Shown here in pieces: positions 6,091 to 40,082 of a stretch of 42,810 nucleotides of DNA; position 1 is the stretch's first letter; each line of letters begins with the position of its first letter. This stretch comes from a virus: the UHGV virus genome UHGV-0330108. One strand, given 5' to 3'. The notes beneath the pieces are model-generated. The model saw only the letters and a list, made by a program, of their open reading frames with translations. It made no database searches and had not been told where the DNA came from. The position numbers were made by a program, and so were the translations under genes.

Positions 6091-6551
6091 TGATGGGCTT
6101 TTTCAAAGTAACTGACGTACCTTCGCGTCGCGTAGTCCAGTACGCCCGCGTGTCTGGCTCTGGCGAGAACGTGGTGTTTATCGAAGACGAAAGTGTACTC
6201 GGCTCACCGGTAGACGATATGCCGTTTGCGGATAAAACCGGTATTGCGTTGCCAGCGGCTGGTATGCTTTACGAGATTCCGTATCTGGCTGACGCTGGCG
6301 ATGTGTATTTCTCGGCGCAACCGCAGGACGCTGAACTGGCAGACGGCGGCGCAACTATCACCGTCGAAGTTAATGCAGGTAAAGCACCGTACGCGCTGAC
6401 CTGGTATAAAGACGGTAAGGAAGTGGTAAACGCCCCGGAAGAGGCTTTATCTCTGACGGTTAATTCAGTCGGCGAATACTTCGTCAAGGTTACCGATGCC
6501 GATGGTGTAGAGGCCGTAAGTAAAGCGGCGAAGGTTACGAAGCCAGAATGA
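6090..6551 (+). CDS. Ig-like domain protein (possible capsid decoration protein)
   Basis: C-terminal segment TVEVNAGKAPYALTWYKDGKEV...GEYFVKVTDADG is Ig-like; start ATGATG overlaps the previous stop. Confidence 0.5.
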   Translation: MMGFFKVTDVPSRRVVQYARVSGSGENVVFIEDESVLGSPVDDMPFADKTGIALPAAGMLYEIPYLADAGDVYFSAQPQDAELADGGATITVEVNAGKAPYALTWYKDGKEVVNAPEEALSLTVNSVGEYFVKVTDADGVEAVSKAAKVTKPE

Positions 6552-6554
6552 TAA

Positions 6555-6585
6555 AAGGCCCCTTACGGGGCCTTAGTTTTATTTG
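6555..6585. terminator. bidirectional rho-independent terminator
   Basis: AAGGCCCC-TTAC-GGGGCCTT flanked by an A-run upstream and AGTTTTATTT downstream, at a convergent gene junction. Confidence 0.55.
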
Positions 6586-6797
6586 AAGAATATCGCGAAT
6601 TTCTTGTAACCCGCTGGCTCGTTGCGCAGACCGTGTTCGTTAGCAAAACGTTGTATATTGTTAAAGTCATTTTCACCCATTCCGTCCGTATCGAACGTAA
6701 AGAAATTACGTTTGTTCCCGATAAGCACACGGCTTGTGATATCAATGCCGTAAAGTTCTTTGATGGCACGTACAACGTTTGCAGTAGCTTTGTTCAT
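6579..6797 (-). CDS. hypothetical protein (72 aa), isolated minus-strand gene
   Basis: ORF track frame 6579-6896; internal ATG at 6797 preceded by TAAGGAATTTGGAA; a TATAAT-containing 23-mer lies ~33 nt upstream. Confidence 0.5.
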   Translation of the reverse strand: MNKATANVVRAIKELYGIDITSRVLIGNKRNFFTFDTDGMGENDFNNIQRFANEHGLRNEPAGYKKFAIFFK

Positions 6798-6829
6798 TTC
6801 CAAATTCCTTATCTCTCGTTTCGATGTAA

Positions 6830-6852
6830 TGAATAGTACCCTATTATATTGG
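6830..6852 (-). promoter_or_regulatory. promoter/operator cassette TGAATAGTACCCTATTATATTGG (minus-strand TATAAT plus palindrome GAATAG-N4-CTATTA)
   Basis: Perfect TATAAT on the minus strand overlapping a 16-bp palindrome; the identical 23-mer recurs at 16043-16065. Confidence 0.45.
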
Positions 6853-6927
6853 TGTCTGCAAACTATTTGTTTACGTATTCCAGTTATTCCACTCAATTGT
6901 AAATGTTGGAATAAACTATTCGAATAG

Positions 6928-6956
6928 TTGACTTTTCACTAAAAATGTGCTAAGCT
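6928..6956 (+). promoter_or_regulatory. putative sigma70-like promoter (TTGACT-N17-TAAGCT, TG-extended) next to palindrome AACTATTCGAATAGTT
   Basis: -35 is a good match, -10 is weak; palindromic half-sites overlap the -35. Confidence 0.3.
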
Positions 6957-7180
6957 CCACCTGAGCTTGTGAAGTATGAACAAGCGACCGCGGCGCGGGC
7001 AGGTAACGGAGCGGGACGTAAGTCCTGAGTGTAGTTACGCTGACGCGTTCGGAAGGGCCATACTCTATTGCTTGTGTAAAAAGTAACTGGTTTACTGAGA
7101 TTACGCCGTTTCTATGTTTAAATGATAAGGACTAGCGCCCCGCTTTATGGCGGGGCTTTACTTATCGAGAAAGGAGAAAC

Positions 7181-7567
7181 ATGAATCTTAAAGCAACTGT
7201 CGTAGCTGGGGCGTGTTTCATCATCCTGGCTTACGCACACGGCATCTACCAGTATCGCACCGGCTGGAACGAAGGCCGGGCGAATCTCGTTTCGCGGCAA
7301 CAGCAGAAAGCACAGGCTGAGTTAGCGAAGAAAACACAACGGCAGCAGCAGGATGAATCAAAGGCCGCGGCCGCTGACAACGAAGGCAAGACGAAATCAG
7401 AGGTAATTACCCGTGAAGTCGTTAAGTACATTAGAACGCCTGGTCGCAGCGTGTGCACTTTCGATAATGCTCGCGTCCTGCTCAAGTCCCGCGCCGTCGC
7501 AAACGCCAATTCCATCCCCGGATACGACGATGATGCAGCCACCGTGCAAACTGGCAGCACCAAGTAG
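7181..7567 (+). CDS. putative i-spanin (Rz-like)
   Basis: N-terminal TM helix (ATVVAGACFIILAYAHGIY) then a charged, Q/A/K-rich periplasmic region; AAGGAG RBS; contains an embedded +1-frame lipoprotein ORF. Confidence 0.6.
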   Translation: MNLKATVVAGACFIILAYAHGIYQYRTGWNEGRANLVSRQQQKAQAELAKKTQRQQQDESKAAAADNEGKTKSEVITREVVKYIRTPGRSVCTFDNARVLLKSRAVANANSIPGYDDDAATVQTGSTK

Positions 7568-7676
7568 CGACGCTGACGAAGATTTAGCCATCGACGTTCA
7601 GAACGCCGAATGTGCACGGCAACTGAGGCTGAAAGTGTTCATGTTGCAGGATTACGTGAGGAATATTCTGGAATAG
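7413..7676 (+). CDS. putative o-spanin (Rz1-like lipoprotein), overlapping the i-spanin gene
   Basis: Signal peptide with lipobox LASC, then a proline-rich mature region (SPAPSQTPIPSPD...MMQPPC); starts inside 7181-7567 in another frame. Confidence 0.6.
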   Translation: MKSLSTLERLVAACALSIMLASCSSPAPSQTPIPSPDTTMMQPPCKLAAPSSDADEDLAIDVQNAECARQLRLKVFMLQDYVRNILE

Positions 7677-7758
7677 TTGCCTTGCATGTTGGAATAATTT
7701 ATTCTTGACATGTAAATCCGGGTGGCCCGGATTCCAACGTCCAGGGGACATACTGACT

Positions 7759-8463
7759 ATGAATCGTTTTTTACGTTATCCGTTCCAGGAAGAAGCTGGG
7801 GCAGAAGATAAATCTGGTGGCGGTGATGCGCCGAAAATGTTCACCGCTGAAGAAGTTCGGGCGCTGATTGAGAAAGAAGTTGCCGGGCTTAAGGCCAATC
7901 AGGAAGCATTACTGGCGGAGAAGAAAGAAGCCGCTCGTAAAGCAAAAGAGGCCGAAGAAGAACGGCAGCGCGCCCACCAGGAGGCGTTAAAAGCCGCTGG
8001 TAAAATGGACGAATTCGAAAAGACGATTCGTAGCCAGTATGACCCGGTGTTAGCCGAGAAAGATGGTCGCATCTCCAGAATGGCAGAGCGCATCCTCGGC
8101 AGCGAACGTAAAGCGGTGTTAGGCTCTTTCGCAGGTGACTTTATTACTCCGGAAGCAGTGGACATCCTCGCGCCGTTCGTTAAGACTGAGTTCGAAGGTG
8201 ATGACGTGGTTACTAAGTTTGTCGGCGCAGATGGCAATGTAATCACGACTGACCCGGAACAGTTCCGCAAATACTTGCGCGAACACAAAGCGTTTTCGCA
8301 TTTGATTAAAGCAAATGCAGCTTCCGGCGGCGGGGCTTCCGGTAGCAAAGGCGGCGGGGCCGCACCAGCGTTTAAAGACATGAGTGAAGCGGAGCGTATT
8401 GCTCTGTACGAATCGAACCCTGCCGAATTTGAACGGCAACTTAAAGCCCTGAGGAAAAAATAA
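7759..8463 (+). CDS. putative scaffolding protein
   Basis: ORF track frame 7705-8463, ATG at 7759; E/K/A-rich predicted coiled coil; immediately upstream of and coupled to the major capsid gene. Confidence 0.6.
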   Translation: MNRFLRYPFQEEAGAEDKSGGGDAPKMFTAEEVRALIEKEVAGLKANQEALLAEKKEAARKAKEAEEERQRAHQEALKAAGKMDEFEKTIRSQYDPVLAEKDGRISRMAERILGSERKAVLGSFAGDFITPEAVDILAPFVKTEFEGDDVVTKFVGADGNVITTDPEQFRKYLREHKAFSHLIKANAASGGGASGSKGGGAAPAFKDMSEAERIALYESNPAEFERQLKALRKK

Positions 8464-9512: not shown

Positions 9513-9528
9513 GGTTAAGCTATAATCG

Positions 9529-13916: not shown

Positions 13917-13950
13917 AACTAAGGCCCCAAACGGGGCCTTTTTCTTACTC
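13917..13950. terminator. bidirectional rho-independent terminator cassette
   Basis: AAAACT-AAGGCCCC-AAAC-GGGGCCTT-TTTTCTTACTC; the minus-strand gene's stop codon lies in the T-tract. Near-identical copy at 25239-25277. Confidence 0.65.
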
Positions 13951-16042: not shown

Positions 16043-16065
16043 TGAATAGTACCCTATTATATTGG
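16043..16065 (-). promoter_or_regulatory. promoter/operator cassette TGAATAGTACCCTATTATATTGG, identical to 6830-6852
   Basis: Exact 23-mer repeat with minus-strand TATAAT and the palindrome, directly upstream of the island's first gene. Confidence 0.45.
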
Positions 16066-16181
16066 GGCGCGCAAGTAGTGTGCTAGAATAGGTTTGCGCC
16101 TAGTGTCGCACACGAAAAGCGGGTGGTTCCCGTCTGGCGCATCAACCTTAACCCGTAACCTCTTAACCAAAGGATTAAAGA

Positions 16182-25238: not shown

Positions 25239-25277
25239 AAAAAAACTAAGGCCCCAAACGGGGCCTTTTCTTTACTC
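25239..25277. terminator. bidirectional rho-independent terminator cassette
   Basis: A9-CT-AAGGCCCC-AAAC-GGGGCCTT-TTCTTTACTC; core identical to 13917-13950; contains the stop codon of a minus-strand small gene. Confidence 0.65.
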
Positions 25278-27341: not shown

Positions 27342-27653
27342 TCAATTCCTTATATTGTTGGTGCAGGGATAACTATAATAGTTCGCTATTAGGTCGTCAA
27401 CCTCTTCTTTTGTTCCTACTACAAAAACATTTGCGTCACGTTTACGAAGCCGTTTGTGTTCCCGCAACTGATGGGCCTCCGGTTCCGTGTTTTCGTCTTT
27501 CTTCACCTCGACGAACCATATAACCCCTCCAGGAAGGGCTACCAGCAGGTCAGGCGCTCCGTTTCTACCCTCATAAGACAGCTTACGAACGAGGCCACCA
27601 ATGGCCTCGAATTGCTCTTTTGCGTATTTCTGTATTTTTCCTTCCGGGGTCAT
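27342..27653 (-). CDS. VRR-NUC domain nuclease
   Basis: ORF track frame 27342-27668; ATG at 27653; motif GAPDLLVALPGGVIWFVEVKKDE fits the VRR-NUC/PD-(D/E)XK signature. Confidence 0.7.
   Translation of the reverse strand: MTPEGKIQKYAKEQFEAIGGLVRKLSYEGRNGAPDLLVALPGGVIWFVEVKKDENTEPEAHQLREHKRLRKRDANVFVVGTKEEVDDLIANYYSYPCTNNIRN
27372..27400 (-). promoter_or_regulatory. sigma70-like promoter (minus: TTGACG-N17-TATAGT) with palindrome TAATAGTTCGCTATTA in the spacer
   Basis: Read on the reverse complement; lies inside the 3' end of the VRR-NUC gene, upstream of 27045-27338. Confidence 0.55.
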
Positions 27654-30896: not shown

Positions 30897-30949
30897 CGTG
30901 ATTTCTCGCTTTTCAGTTTACTCCGGGAACTGCCCGGCCAGTTATTAGA

Positions 30950-30978
30950 ACTATAATAGTTAACTATTCAGGTGTCAA
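30950..30978 (-). promoter_or_regulatory. sigma70-like promoter (minus: TTGACA-N17-TATAGT) with perfect palindrome GAATAGTTAACTATTA in the spacer
   Basis: Consensus -35, near-consensus -10, 17-bp spacer; ~45 nt upstream of the ATG at 30896. Confidence 0.6.
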
Positions 30979-31211
30979 CCCTTCCAGCCAGTTATTTTCT
31001 CGACTAGCCAGATATACTTGTTTGGCCAGTTCAAATTGCGTACCCACTCAACTTCTTTGGTGTACACCAACTCCTCTAGTTCTATTTTCCTGCACTTAAA
31101 GGCGGTATACACGAAAAACGGAAGAAGCATTATAACTAGCGGCAGTATCAGAGCGTGATAAGTTAAAAACGCCACAAAACCGCCAATTACTCTGAACATT
31201 TTACGAATCAT
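30975..31211 (-). CDS. small membrane protein (78 aa from MIRKMF...)
   Basis: ORF track frame 30975-31241; ATG at 31211 overlaps the exonuclease stop, with GAGGAGGA upstream; hydrophobic core. Confidence 0.45.
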   Translation of the reverse strand: MIRKMFRVIGGFVAFLTYHALILPLVIMLLPFFVYTAFKCRKIELEELVYTKEVEWVRNLNWPNKYIWLVEKITGWKG

Positions 31212-33453: not shown

Positions 33454-33485
33454 TTTGTTTCTCTCCTCTCGTTTGGTATGGGCTA

Positions 33486-33515
33486 ACTATAATAGCGAAC
33501 TATTCATGTTGTCAA
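33486..33515 (-). promoter_or_regulatory. sigma70-like promoter (minus: TTGACA-N18-TATAGT) with palindrome GAATAGTTCGCTATTA
   Basis: Same architecture as 27372-27400 and 30950-30978; divergent from the XRE regulator gene. Confidence 0.55.
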
Positions 33516-36603: not shown

Positions 36604-36983
36604 ACATAATTGCACCTATTGACATTATGAAAATCTTCGTTTAAGGTGCTTCTATATCTTAGTTACTTTGATTCCTGTTCACCTTGTAAAACCGCTTAAA
36701 ACGCAGCTGCGCGCAGCGCAAGCAAAGTGTTAAGCGCAAGTTTACTGAACATGAGAATTATCATAACTTTCCTCCCTAAGTATCTCCGGTTGCCCTGGGC
36801 AAGCTCTATTCCCATCGGCAGCATATCTCTTAAGTATCTGATTTTCTTAATGTGCCGTAGATTCACAACCGTAAAAATGTAACGATTATTGGGCAGGCTT
36901 AAGGCCTGCCCTTTAGTTACCAAGTAATAAGAATAAAGGCACAACCCTACCTGAAGAATCACAACGGCAACGTAACTATTCTC

Positions 36984-37988: not shown

Positions 37989-38192
37989 ATGGGTGAGTGG
38001 GTTAAGTGTAGTGAGCGGATGCCGGAGCCGGGTCAACCAGTTTTGGTCGTCAGTAGTATGGGCGGGGTGGTCAAGAAACATGTGTACGATTGGGATGGGA
38101 TGACTTGGTGCGATTTCTACGGGGAACACGCGGAATGCGGGCGGGAAGTGTTTTCTCACTGGATGCCATTACCGGAGCCGCCAGAAGCGTGA
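37989..38192 (+). CDS. DUF551-like protein, paralog 1
   Basis: Shares WVKCSERMPE...SHWMPLPEPPEA framework with 38676-38873; pattern resembles DUF551. Confidence 0.55.
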   Translation: MGEWVKCSERMPEPGQPVLVVSSMGGVVKKHVYDWDGMTWCDFYGEHAECGREVFSHWMPLPEPPEA

Positions 38193-38557: not shown

Positions 38558-38692
38558 ATGACTAACTACGGTAGTCAGACTTTAGGCGAACTTGACGATG
38601 CATACGAAACGTCTAGGTGCACGTCTGTATGCGACGGTGATACACGCGAAATAGTAATGGGGGTAGAGGGTGAATATGAGCAAGTGGATTAA
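38558..38692 (+). CDS. hypothetical small protein (44 aa)
   Basis: Not in the ORF track; strong RBS GGGAGGAGAG; 3' end overlaps the next gene. Confidence 0.35.
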   Translation: MTNYGSQTLGELDDAYETSRCTSVCDGDTREIVMGVEGEYEQVD

Positions 38693-38873
38693 GTGTAGTG
38701 AGAAGATGCCGGAAGGTTTTACGGATGTACTTGTTACCGACGGCTCCTATGTGGAAATTATGACGCTACTTGGTGACGGTATCTGGCTTGTGTTGCTGGA
38801 GGAGTGGTCTACCTGCGTTTCTGTTGACAACATAACTCACTGGATGCCATTACCAGAGCCACCGGAAGAGTGA
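38676..38873 (+). CDS. DUF551-like protein, paralog 2
   Basis: ORF track frame 38670-38873; ATG at 38676 with GAGGGTG upstream; same framework as paralog 1. Confidence 0.55.
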   Translation: MSKWIKCSEKMPEGFTDVLVTDGSYVEIMTLLGDGIWLVLLEEWSTCVSVDNITHWMPLPEPPEE

Positions 38874-39458: not shown

Positions 39459-39658
39459 CCAGCATCCTTTTTATCTGGGTATTGTCAGCGGGCCAGATGC
39501 AACTGGCGGCAACAGAAACGTTTTACTCGATGGAGGCGTGCCAGTCAGCGGCACGCGCCGCAGAGAACGCGCACTTCCTGTTTCAGGGCGACAAGCCAAG
39601 CGATTCAGAGGTACGCGCTATCTGCTCACCTAAGCGACTCGGTAAACAGGAGAAGTGA
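39455..39658 (+). CDS. small protein with signal-peptide-like N-terminus (67 aa)
   Basis: ORF track frame 39431-39658; ATG at 39455 overlaps the upstream stop; hydrophobic N-terminus MTSILFIWVLSAGQMQLAA. Confidence 0.5.
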   Translation: MTSILFIWVLSAGQMQLAATETFYSMEACQSAARAAENAHFLFQGDKPSDSEVRAICSPKRLGKQEK

Positions 39659-39663
39659 TTATG
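39620..39663 (+). repeat. 44-bp gene-junction repeat, copy 1 (ATCTGCTCACCTAAGCGACTCGGTAAACAGGAGAAGTGATTATG)
   Basis: 41/44 identical to 40039-40082; spans C-terminal codons, stop, RBS and start. Confidence 0.7.
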
Positions 39664-39963: not shown

Positions 39964-40038
39964 ATATTATGACATCCAACCTTAAGGCCCGTTTGTTACC
40001 CATAAAGCCTCACGTGCTGTATAAGATGGACCAGCTCT

Positions 40039-40082
40039 ATCTGCTCACCCAAGCGACTTGGTAAACAGGAGAAATGATTATG
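40039..40082 (+). repeat. 44-bp gene-junction repeat, copy 2
   Basis: Three mismatches to copy 1, all at third codon positions of the frame encoding ICSPKRLGKQEK. Confidence 0.7.

What the first reader, a model, noticed from the sequence alone, without database searches (positions are those of the whole stretch)
6957..7160. Candidate small RNA or structured leader between promoter-like and terminator-like elements
About 200 nt with no convincing ORF lie between a TTGACT-containing promoter-like site (6928-6956) and a GC-rich hairpin with a U-tract (GCCCCGC-TTTATG-GCGGGGC at ~7137-7160), just upstream of the spanin RBS. The stretch is GC-rich and potentially highly structured. It could be an sRNA, an attenuator-controlled leader or a protein-binding RNA.
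Basis: inference. Interest (0 to 1): 0.5.

Follow-up and report, generated by a model that had tools for sequence, protein, structure and literature searches.

The report
Conserved structured leader RNA, phage late operon
The stretch is a real, non-coding, folded RNA fused to a strong promoter at the head of the phage's lysis and structural genes; it is far better conserved than the neighbouring genes, matches no described RNA family, and probably controls how transcription proceeds into those genes.

Summary
The window is a Kagunavirus-like coliphage. An extended -10 sigma-70 promoter (TTGACT 6928-6933, TG 6948-6949, TAAGCT 6951-6956) starts a transcript at about 6963. Its first 110 nt (6963-7074) fold into a 5'-terminal hairpin, a long irregular hairpin and a conserved single-stranded tail. 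A GC hairpin (7137-7156) lies 24 nt before the spanin start codon.

Covariation supports the fold: 95.6% of cells pair, against 29-41% in slid controls, and seven pairs change on both sides. The 36-aa ORF that some GenBank records annotate here is not conserved. The leader is 96-100% identical in relatives whose flanking genes are 73-96% identical.

Many Kagunaviruses carry a second copy at the head of the other rightward operon. Some Jerseyvirus-like contigs carry a diverged version with wholly swapped helices. There is no Rfam, tRNA or HK022 put match, and no copy in E. coli genomes.

Most likely it is a promoter-coupled, cis-acting leader RNA that modifies elongation or termination, in the manner of put or nut. 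That mechanism is inferred, at about 0.35-0.4. A released ~195-nt sRNA or a processing/stability leader remain live rivals. It is a new RNA family of a known general kind.

The parts
6876..6913 (.). Cluster of TATTCC/GGAATA hexamers upstream of the promoter. These are candidate regulator-binding sites and lie inside the ultraconserved block.
   Evidence: Hexamers at 6876 (+), 6885 (+) and 6908 (-). The only other cluster in the window is at 7660-7696. The block is 92-93% identical to SETP13.
6914..6929 (.). Perfect 16-bp palindrome AACTATTCGAATAGTT overlapping the first two bases of the -35 hexamer. Operator-like, and centred about 41-42 bp upstream of the predicted start.
   Evidence: Single exact match in the window; 12 of 100 shuffles gave any match at up to 3 mismatches. 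It is present in all copy-A promoters and absent from copy-B promoters.
6928..6956 (+). Sigma-70 extended -10 promoter: TTGACT (6928-6933), 17-bp spacer, TG (6948-6949), TAAGCT (6951-6956).
   Evidence: Read from the sequence. The same -35, spacing and TGnTA(A/C)GCT precede every copy of the RNA in classes A, B and C. The consensus scan did not call it. A host promoter was predicted here by PHIRE in the fBC-Eco01 record.
6963..6987 (+). Predicted 5' end of the RNA (G6963/A6964) and P1. P1 is a 6-bp 5'-terminal hairpin (6965-6970 with 6980-6985) with a 9-nt loop, GAAGUAUGA.
   Evidence: The covariance-model hit starts at 6963. P1 pairs in 100% of cells. The loop differs in other variants (GAGAUAUC, GAGUUAUC). 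The whole helix is replaced by UACGC/GCGUA in class C.
6988..7052 (+). Long irregular hairpin.
- P2: 6988-6997 with 7044-7052.
- P3: 7000-7007 with 7034-7042.
- P4: 7012-7017 with 7022-7027.
- Conserved unpaired GGAGC lies 5' of P4 and GAGUGUA lies 3' of P4.
   Evidence: Pair list. Covariation is seen at 7 pairs, e.g. 32-94 CG/UA/AU, 43-83 UA/AU/GC and 59-67 AU/GC/UG/CG. In an alignment-free check, 44 of 45 distinct sequences form a hairpin at P4, with at least 8 different stems. Conserved G-U pairs (30-96, 31-95, 54-72) fix the + strand as the folded one.
7053..7074 (+). Conserved single-stranded tail AAGGGCCAUACUCUAUUGCUUG. Its two motifs are (C)GGAAGGG(C/U)C and UCUAUUG.
   Evidence: Nearly invariant in classes A, B and C. 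The motifs CGGAAGGGYCGAG and AUAGUCUAUU recur in otherwise different leaders of more distant relatives.
7075..7136 (+). Spacer between the core and the hairpin. It contains a small hairpin (AGUAA-CUGGU-UUACU) and the block GAGAUUACGCCGU, which is partly shared with copy B and class C.
   Evidence: 96-100% identical to the window in class-A relatives. GAUU(N)GCCGU is seen in classes A, B and C.
7137..7165 (+). GC-rich hairpin (8 bp, 4-nt loop as scored) followed by UUUACUUAUC. A terminator-like element with a weak U-tract, 24 nt before the spanin start codon.
   Evidence: Terminator scan. Compensatory stem variants and a variable loop. Class C has a different stem (GCCCGGC/GCCGGGC or GCCCGAC/GUCGGGC) followed by UUAGCGUAU.
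7170..7183 (+). RBS (AAGGAG) and ATG (7181) of the i-spanin gene. This is the first gene of the operon that continues with o-spanin, scaffold, major capsid and tail genes.
   Evidence: ORF list; annotations of relatives.

Best explanation
Positions 6928-7165 form a promoter-coupled, non-coding leader cassette.

Shown by sequence analysis:
- A near-consensus extended -10 sigma-70 promoter is placed so that the transcript would start at about 6963.
- The first ~110 nt fold into a 5'-terminal hairpin (P1) and a long three-helix hairpin (P2-P4) with a sequence-conserved internal loop.
- A conserved purine-rich/UCUAUUG tail follows.
- About 60 nt further on lies a GC hairpin with a short U-tract, just before the spanin RBS.

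Proposed mechanism (inferred, not shown):
- The nascent RNA acts in cis on the RNA polymerase that made it. It does so either alone, like the HK022 put RNAs, or as the docking site for a phage or host factor, like nut sites.
- Complexes started at this promoter then read through the leader hairpin and the later internal terminators of the operon (9528, 13921).
- Transcription arriving from elsewhere is stopped.
- The upstream palindrome and TATTCC repeats would set when the promoter fires.
For: 1. Structure under selection. 95.6% of cells are paired, against 29-41% when partners are slid. Seven pairs change on both sides, and 0 of 500 shuffles reach the covariation score. The alignment-free P4 check agrees. 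Class C keeps the architecture with entirely different P1, P3 and P4 sequences.

2. Not coding. The ORF is cut to 9-22 aa, frameshifted, or lacks its ATG in relatives.

3. Exceptional conservation. Against SETP13 the stretch 6828-7187 is 92-100% identical, while the neighbouring genes are 55-93% in 60-nt windows. Across about 28 loci the leader is 96-100% identical (two loci drop to 86-90% in the promoter+core), against spanin 73-95%, scaffold 82-96% and MCP 81-92%.

4. Always fused to the same kind of promoter and co-oriented with a long operon. About a quarter of relatives have two copies, one heading the spanin-capsid-tail operon and one heading the small-genes, lysis, terminase and portal operon. 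This is the putL/putR or nutL/nutR layout (PMC9378689).

5. In the second copies the core is followed by unrelated spacers and different GC hairpins 65-130 nt away. That fits action at a distance rather than a local switch.

6. Further strong terminator-like hairpins on the + strand lie inside the operon, at 9528 and 13921.
Against: - No experiment or transcript data were available. The start site and 3' end are predictions.
- The hairpin at 7137 has a weak U-tract. In class C and in copy B the U-tract is weaker or absent, so a need for antitermination at this hairpin is not established.
- There is no similarity to put: model R1 finds nothing in HK022.
- A factor-independent antiterminator on a near-consensus promoter would not by itself give late timing.
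- No Q- or N-like protein was recognised among 29 window proteins scanned, or in a curated relative.
- The window itself, and the Jerseyviruses, use a different leader at the second site. The core is therefore replaceable.
- Part of the high identity may reflect recent exchange of a block that includes the upstream Ig-like gene. That gene is 86-90% identical in class-A Jerseyviruses, against 68-69% in class-C ones.
Confidence: 0.4

Rival explanations
1. A stand-alone small RNA. Transcription from the promoter ends at the 7137-7156 hairpin and releases a stable RNA of about 195 nt. This RNA acts in trans, by pairing with host or phage mRNAs or by sequestering a protein. Read-through would merely supply the operon mRNA.
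For: A promoter, a structured RNA, then a GC hairpin with some U residues is the classic sRNA gene layout. The hairpin stem is kept by compensatory changes. Two copies per genome would raise the dose. There is a precedent: the short transcript of a phage late promoter that terminates early acts as a regulatory sRNA (StxS, PMC7547250, abstract seen).
Against: The U-tract is short and interrupted, and it is worse or absent after the hairpins of copy B and class C. The parts 3' of the core differ completely between copies A and B, so the two 'sRNAs' would share only the 5' 110 nt. No obvious conserved single-stranded seed is complementary to anything identified. Every copy is co-oriented with, and directly abuts, an operon that has no other evident promoter.
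Confidence: 0.25
2. An mRNA processing and stability leader. The 5'-terminal hairpin P1 protects the transcript from 5'-end-dependent decay. The long irregular hairpin is an RNase III-type processing site. The GC hairpin before the RBS becomes a protective end after cleavage. Together these set the abundance of the late mRNA.
For: P1 begins 2 nt from the predicted 5' end in class A and within about 1-3 nt in class C, although its sequence is completely different. The ~25-bp hairpin interrupted by internal loops resembles phage RNase III sites (my own knowledge, not tested). A GC hairpin is kept at a fixed ~24-25 nt from the start codon even where it lacks a U-tract.
Against: Simple stabilisers do not usually need invariant unpaired nucleotides or a conserved linear tail. 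This reading does not explain conservation 15-25 points above the neighbouring genes, or the tight coupling to one promoter type.
Confidence: 0.15
3. A local attenuator or riboswitch. The core binds a metabolite or protein and thereby decides whether the 7137 hairpin forms.
For: Conserved unpaired nucleotides in an internal loop and tail, flanked by covarying helices, are typical of ligand- or protein-binding RNAs.
Against: No segment of the core is clearly complementary to the hairpin arms. The same core sits in front of different hairpins at different distances in copy B. There was no Rfam riboswitch match even at E up to 10.
Confidence: 0.07
4. The conservation is at the DNA level: a regulator-binding array, a replication or packaging site, or a recombination boundary. 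The RNA fold is incidental.
For: The untranscribed 6828-6928 is also 92-93% conserved and holds a palindrome and repeated hexamers. Relatives have either a near-identical cassette or a wholly different one, as expected for exchanged modules.
Against: Compensatory double changes, and conserved G-U pairs that would be A-C on the other strand, show selection on the + strand RNA. The GC-skew extremes lie at about 36,500 and 25,000, not near 7,000.
Confidence: 0.05
5. It encodes the 36-aa protein MNKRPRRGQVTERDVSPECSYADAFGRAILYCLCKK, as annotated in several GenBank records.
For: An ATG-initiated ORF at 6976-7086 exists and is annotated in fBC-Eco01, phiWAO78-1 and Sciku.
Against: The ORF is truncated to 9 aa in K1ind1-like and fBC-Eco01-like copies. 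It is frameshifted or 17-22 aa in others, and the ATG is absent in five variants. The ATG lies in the P1 loop. No Shine-Dalgarno-like sequence (GGAG/AGGA) is visible upstream of that ATG in the sequence.
Confidence: 0.01

Closest known systems
HK022 putL/putR antiterminator RNAs
   Same: Both are cis-encoded structured RNAs made immediately downstream of a strong sigma-70 promoter. Both are built from stem-loops separated by very few nucleotides. Both occur as two related copies at the heads of two operons, with terminators downstream (PMC9378689).
   Different: There is no detectable sequence or structure homology. This RNA is about 110 nt, against about 70 nt for put. It has one short and one long multi-helix hairpin plus a conserved linear tail. 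It heads lysis and structural operons of a virulent siphovirus rather than the early operons of a lambdoid phage. Its activity is untested.
Lambda PR'-qut-6S RNA-tR' late leader (Q-dependent antitermination) and StxS
   Same: A strong promoter is followed by a short leader of about 200 nt that ends in a hairpin immediately upstream of lysis and structural genes. The short transcript could also be an sRNA (PMC7547250).
   Different: No Q homologue was recognised. Here the RNA fold itself is under selection. The hairpin has a weak U-tract.
Lambda nut sites (boxA + boxB) with N and Nus factors
   Same: A hairpin plus a conserved linear element near the start of two operons. A protein-assisted version of the proposed mechanism would work like this.
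   Different: This RNA is much larger and more complex. The tail (UCUAUUG) only loosely resembles boxA, a resemblance recalled from memory and not tested. No N-like protein was identified.
Other RNA-based processive antitermination elements (EAR of Bacillus eps operons; RNA elements of Tn916 and conjugative plasmids)
   Same: Structured leader RNAs that let RNA polymerase bypass several terminators in long operons (PMC11658703 and PMC8191782, abstracts seen).
   Different: They come from different hosts and show no Rfam-level similarity. Some need a partner protein.

Membership tests
Any Rfam 15 family (including known phage sRNAs, riboswitches, leaders) | Covariance-model score at or above the family's gathering threshold | tested here: not met
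   No match in the whole window at gathering thresholds. At E up to 10 over 6500-7800, the only hits are chance-level ones, none covering 6963-7058.
tRNA / tmRNA | ARAGORN-detectable cloverleaf or tmRNA | tested here: not met
   No genes in the window.
HK022 put RNA | Sequence/structure homology to putL/putR | tested here: not met
   Model R1 of this RNA finds no match in the complete HK022 genome at E up to 1. The reverse test with a put model was not possible.
HK022 put RNA | Located just downstream of a sigma-70 promoter at the head of an operon, in two related copies per genome | tested here: met
   The promoter abuts the RNA in all copies. Two copies occur in about a quarter of phage records with a hit (224 places in 181 records). 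The window itself has only one copy.
HK022 put RNA | Protein-independent antitermination through the beta' zinc-binding domain | not testable with these tools
   Needs in vitro transcription and rpoC mutants.
Q-type late antitermination (lambda PR') | A Q-family protein encoded by the phage | tested here: inconclusive
   29 window proteins were scanned with Pfam or PHROGs and none had an antiterminator hit. None is annotated in the curated Sciku record. Not every ORF was scanned, and a novel factor cannot be excluded.
Intrinsic (Rho-independent) terminator | GC-rich stem-loop | tested here: met
   8 pairs, 7 of them G-C, at 7137-7156. The stem is kept by compensatory changes.
Intrinsic (Rho-independent) terminator | Uninterrupted U-tract directly after the stem | tested here: inconclusive
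   UUUACUUAUC passes the lax scan (5 T in 8) but has only three consecutive U. Class C has UUAGCGUAU, and the copy-B hairpins have no clear U-tract.
Sigma-70 promoter | -35 and -10 hexamers at 16-18 bp | tested here: inconclusive
   TTGACT (5 of 6), 17 bp, TAAGCT (3 of 6) with the TGn extension. The scanner's threshold was not met, but the element is conserved in all classes. The start site was not measured.
Small protein gene | ORF and reading frame conserved among relatives | tested here: not met
   Truncations, frameshifts and loss of the ATG.

The most novel reading that the evidence does not exclude
The RNA is a second, non-homologous family of self-sufficient antiterminator RNAs. Like HK022 put, the nascent transcript binds the E. 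coli or Salmonella RNA polymerase that made it and renders it terminator-resistant without any protein. Here this happens in virulent Guernseyvirinae. The RNA would exist as interchangeable promoter+RNA cassettes (classes A, B and C, and perhaps the other leaders seen in relatives) that recombination swaps between operons and genera.
Probability: 0.15. Interest if true: 0.75.

Novelty: new variant of a known kind. Interest (0 to 1): 0.55.

Why it matters
Kagunaviruses and Jerseyviruses are among the most frequently isolated E. coli and Salmonella phages and are used in therapy and biocontrol work. How they switch on lysis and structural genes with the host polymerase is not described.

This cassette is the best-conserved sequence in its neighbourhood. 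It sits exactly where late transcription must start, yet it is either unannotated or mislabelled as a 36-aa protein.

If it modifies RNA polymerase, it would add a new RNA family to a mechanism known in detail from essentially one phage system. It would also give a compact, portable promoter-leader part. If it is an sRNA, it is an abundant phage regulator with unknown targets. Either way it is directly testable with simple reporter and in vitro transcription assays.

Tried and rejected
- **tRNA/tmRNA and Rfam.** Nothing found.
- **Thermodynamic stability alone.** Not significant on either strand.
- **Second copy in the window.** None found by a pattern search with 3 mismatches or by the covariance model.
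- **Homology to HK022 put.** None.
- **Prophage, satellite or host copies.** None in 5,426 E. coli genomes. One 44-kb 'plasmid', by its size probably a phage genome (not inspected). One MAG contig of 6 kb. Locus L004, which at first looked like a satellite context (primase + AlpA-like gene), is simply the early region of a Kagunavirus.
- **A loose 3'-anchored pattern scan of viral contigs.** Mostly chance hits.
- **MAFFT + RNAalifold without structural guidance.** This misaligned the inner helices and found only one covarying pair. The model-guided alignment and an alignment-free check were used instead.
- **Pseudoknot between the P1 loop (AGUAUG) and the tail (CAUACU).** It appears in the single-sequence MFE but does not covary (tail variants CAUAGU and CAAAGU; different loops). 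Rejected.
- **Sigma-dependent pause element in the P1 loop.** Not conserved, since other variants have GAGAUAUC. A -10-like hexamer at the very start (GAGCTT; TACGCT in class C) remains only a lead.
- **uORF read from the SD-like GGAAGGG plus UUG/AUU.** Neither candidate start codon is universal. Not supported.
- **CRISPR-repeat mimicry by the CCCCGC/GCGGGG stem.** The stem sequence varies, so this is rejected.
- **Origin of replication.** No GC-skew feature at 7 kb.
- **Literature.** No paper found on RNAs or transcription start sites of these phages. One Kagunavirus time-course RNA-seq paper reports only gene-level classes.

Full report
**Identity of the window**

The region matches 184 phage records at 80-100% identity. 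Nearly all are Kagunavirus (E. coli) or Jerseyvirus (Salmonella) phages of the Guernseyvirinae. The finding lies between a short leftward gene (6579-6797) and the i-spanin gene (7181). After the spanin genes come o-spanin, scaffold, major capsid and tail genes.

**Checking the observation**

- TTGACT is at 6928-6933. A 17-bp spacer follows, then TG at 6948-6949 and TAAGCT at 6951-6956.
- The consensus scanner does not call this promoter, because the -10 matches only 3 of 6. However, the same -35, spacing and TGn-TA(A/C)GCT precede every copy of the element found.
- The hairpin 7137-7156 is called terminator-like. Its U-tract is short (UUUACUUAUC).
- A 36-aa ORF (6976-7086) does exist and is annotated as a hypothetical protein in several records.
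- Folding energy of the 209 nt is unremarkable on both strands, with z = -1.5 and -1.7.
- There is no tRNA or tmRNA and no Rfam family, even at E up to 10.

**Conservation**

Against Salmonella phage SETP13, the surrounding structural genes align at about 73-77% identity. Positions 6828-7187 are 92-100% identical in 60-nt windows, and identity falls to 60-83% within 60 nt of the spanin start.

I fetched about 50 full-length loci through the capsid gene. In every locus that carries this version of the leader, the leader is 96-100% identical to the window; two loci drop to 86-90% in the promoter+core. The flanking genes are lower: spanin 73-95%, scaffold 82-96%, capsid 81-92% and the upstream Ig-like gene 83-90%.

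One caveat applies. Jerseyviruses with this leader also have a more similar Ig-like gene than those without it (86-90% against 68-69%). Some of the identity may therefore come from recent exchange of a block. Even so, the leader is still the best-conserved part of that block.

**It is an RNA, not a protein**

Pattern scans of viral and metagenome contigs, plus a covariance model (R1), gave 102 instances and 47 distinct sequences.

On the model-guided alignment:
- 95.6% of cells form standard pairs, against 29-41% when partners are slid by 1-3 columns.
- Seven pairs change on both sides.
- None of 500 shuffles reaches the observed covariation score.

That alignment is fitted to the model, so I also made an alignment-free check. 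The segment between the conserved GAGC and GAGUG anchors folds into a hairpin in 44 of 45 distinct sequences. At least eight different stems occur: GGGAC/GUCCU, GGUGC/GCACU, GGGGC/GCCCU, CACGU/ACGUG, GUGCC/GGCAC and others. Conserved G-U pairs fix the + strand as the folded one.

The ORF fails in relatives:
- It is 9 aa long in K1ind1-like and fBC-Eco01-like copies.
- It is 17-22 aa or frameshifted in others.
- The ATG, which sits in the P1 loop, is missing in five variants.

**Anatomy in the window**

| Element | Coordinates | Notes |
|---|---|---|
| Predicted start | about 6963 | 7 nt after the -10 |
| P1 | 6965-6970 with 6980-6985 | 9-nt loop |
| P2 | 6988-6997 with 7044-7052 | |
| P3 | 7000-7007 with 7034-7042 | |
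| P4 | 7012-7017 with 7022-7027 | conserved unpaired GGAGC and GAGUGUA flank it |
| Tail | 7053-7074 | AAGGGCCAUACUCUAUUGCUUG |
| Spacer | 7075-7136 | |
| Hairpin | 7137-7156 | |
| Spanin start | 7181 | |

The hairpin stem is kept by compensatory changes: C-G to U-A in five loci and to A-U in two. Its loop varies.

**A cassette that occurs twice, and diverged classes**

Many Kagunaviruses carry a second copy ('B'); 224 places were found in 181 records. It has the same type of promoter and lies at the divergent early region. There it heads the other rightward operon, which runs from small genes through holins and endolysin to terminase, portal and head morphogenesis.

- Copy B shares the 110-nt core. 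Its upstream DNA is different, its spacer is mostly different, and it is followed by different GC hairpins 65-130 nt downstream with little or no U-tract.
- The window has only copy A. At the B site (36615-36920) it carries another long leader that folds significantly (z = -3.76). That leader is the common type in Jerseyviruses.
- A weaker model hit (36-42 bits) marks 'class C' in Jerseyvirus-like contigs, at the same place before spanin. P1, P3 and P4 are entirely different sequences. P2, the internal-loop nucleotides (GAAGC ... UAGCGUA) and the tail (CGGAAGGGCCGAGCUAUAUUGCUU) are kept. Single-sequence folding returns the same architecture.
- More distant relatives have yet other long GC-rich leaders before spanin. 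These share only CGGAAGGGYCGAG or AUAGUCUAUU with the tail. Whether they are homologous is not established.
- The family was not found outside this phage group. There was no hit in E. coli genomes. One 44-kb 'plasmid' record had a hit and is probably a phage genome by its size. One 6-kb MAG contig also had a hit.

**How it most likely works**

Shown: a structured, non-coding RNA, selected at the RNA level, always fused to an extended -10 promoter and always co-oriented with a long operon.

Inferred: it acts in cis on transcription. The arguments are as follows.
- The two-copy, head-of-operon layout is the layout of putL/putR and nutL/nutR (PMC9378689).
- The same core works in front of unrelated spacers and hairpins, which disfavours a local alternative-pairing switch.
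- Several terminator-like hairpins lie inside the operon, at 7137, 9528 and 13921.
- Invariant unpaired nucleotides framed by covarying helices suggest a specific binding surface, for RNA polymerase or for a factor.

Against this reading:
- The leader hairpin is at best a weak terminator.
- No put homology exists.
- No Q- or N-like protein was recognised.
- A self-acting antiterminator would not by itself give late timing. The palindrome AACTATTCGAATAGTT over the -35 and the TATTCC repeats suggest a separate DNA-binding regulator for timing.

I put the cis elongation/termination mechanism at about 0.35-0.4. The alternatives are a released ~195-nt sRNA (precedent StxS, PMC7547250) at about 0.25, a stability or processing leader at about 0.15, a local riboswitch or attenuator at about 0.07, a DNA-level element at about 0.05 and a protein at about 0.01. 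That it is a functional structured RNA I hold at about 0.9.

**Comparison with what is known, and novelty**

It works most like put/nut-type leader elements or the lambda PR' short transcript. It is not a member of any of these families by the tests available. It matches no Rfam model, and I found no paper describing it. I therefore class it as a new RNA family of a known general kind.

**Verdict**

The finding is real and worth following up. Interest is moderate to high. The mechanism is open but directly testable.

Noticed in passing
window 36615-36920 (+): At the site where other Kagunaviruses carry the second copy of the RNA, this phage has a different ~270-nt leader. It has a promoter-like TTGACA-17-TAAGGT at 36620-36648 and a hairpin/terminator at 36891-36911. 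It folds well beyond shuffles (z = -3.76) and occurs in 363 phage records, mostly Salmonella Jerseyviruses, at only about 75% identity between genera. From 'CTATT' onward it is homologous to the copy-B spacer.
   Followed up: partly
window 6876-6929 and 7660-7696: TATTCC/GGAATA hexamers cluster only at these two places: upstream of the RNA promoter and upstream of the scaffold gene. A perfect palindrome AACTATTCGAATAGTT overlaps the -35. Similar TATTCCA repeats precede the unrelated leader promoter in L224-type relatives. These are probably binding sites of an unidentified phage regulator.
   Followed up: partly
window 6830-6861 and 16043-16074: A 32-nt repeat (88% identical). Read on the minus strand it is a promoter-like TTGC(A/G)..-17-TACTAT, in each case facing a leftward gene block. 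It lies inside the ultraconserved region.
   Followed up: no
window 27371-27402, 30949-30980, 33485-33509: Three copies of AACTATAATAGTT(N)AACTATT coincide with the three best minus-strand sigma-70 promoter matches (TTGACA/G, 17-18 bp, TATAGT). These are early leftward promoters with a shared palindromic, operator-like motif. The half-site AACTAT/ATAGTT resembles the palindrome at 6914-6929.
   Followed up: no
window 6555-6574, 13921-13940, 25248-25267: Near-identical bidirectional hairpins AAGGCCCC-N4-GGGGCCTT, with T-runs on both sides, mark the ends of transcription blocks.
   Followed up: no
L224 2100-2380; L252 1840-2170; also L229, L236, L237, L250, L256: Relatives with capsid proteins 80-88% identical have other long GC-rich leaders before the spanin gene. 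These share only CGGAAGGGYCGAG or AUAGUCUAUU with the tail of the RNA studied here, plus a common downstream module ending in a GUGGGG...CCCCAC hairpin without a U-tract. They may be further classes of the same system.
   Followed up: partly
GenBank records of relatives (L001 1655-1771, L002 1675-1785, L152 5621-5731 and 37531-37638): The RNA is annotated as a 36-38-aa hypothetical protein in several records. In phage Sciku the second copy is overlapped by a minus-strand 'hypothetical protein'. Both are probably annotation artefacts.
   Followed up: yes
window 6579-6797 (-): The small leftward gene next to the cassette matches PHROG 7673 ('internal head protein', E = 4e-27). This slot is not conserved between the window and SETP13, where a different, larger gene sits. 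It is a variable cargo position between a terminator and the conserved promoter block.
   Followed up: partly
window 37989-38192 and 38676-38873; 39615-39663 and 40034-40082: Two paralogous small genes (both PHROG 924) and a duplicated 49-nt RBS-containing segment lie in the rightward early operon. These are signs of local duplications.
   Followed up: no
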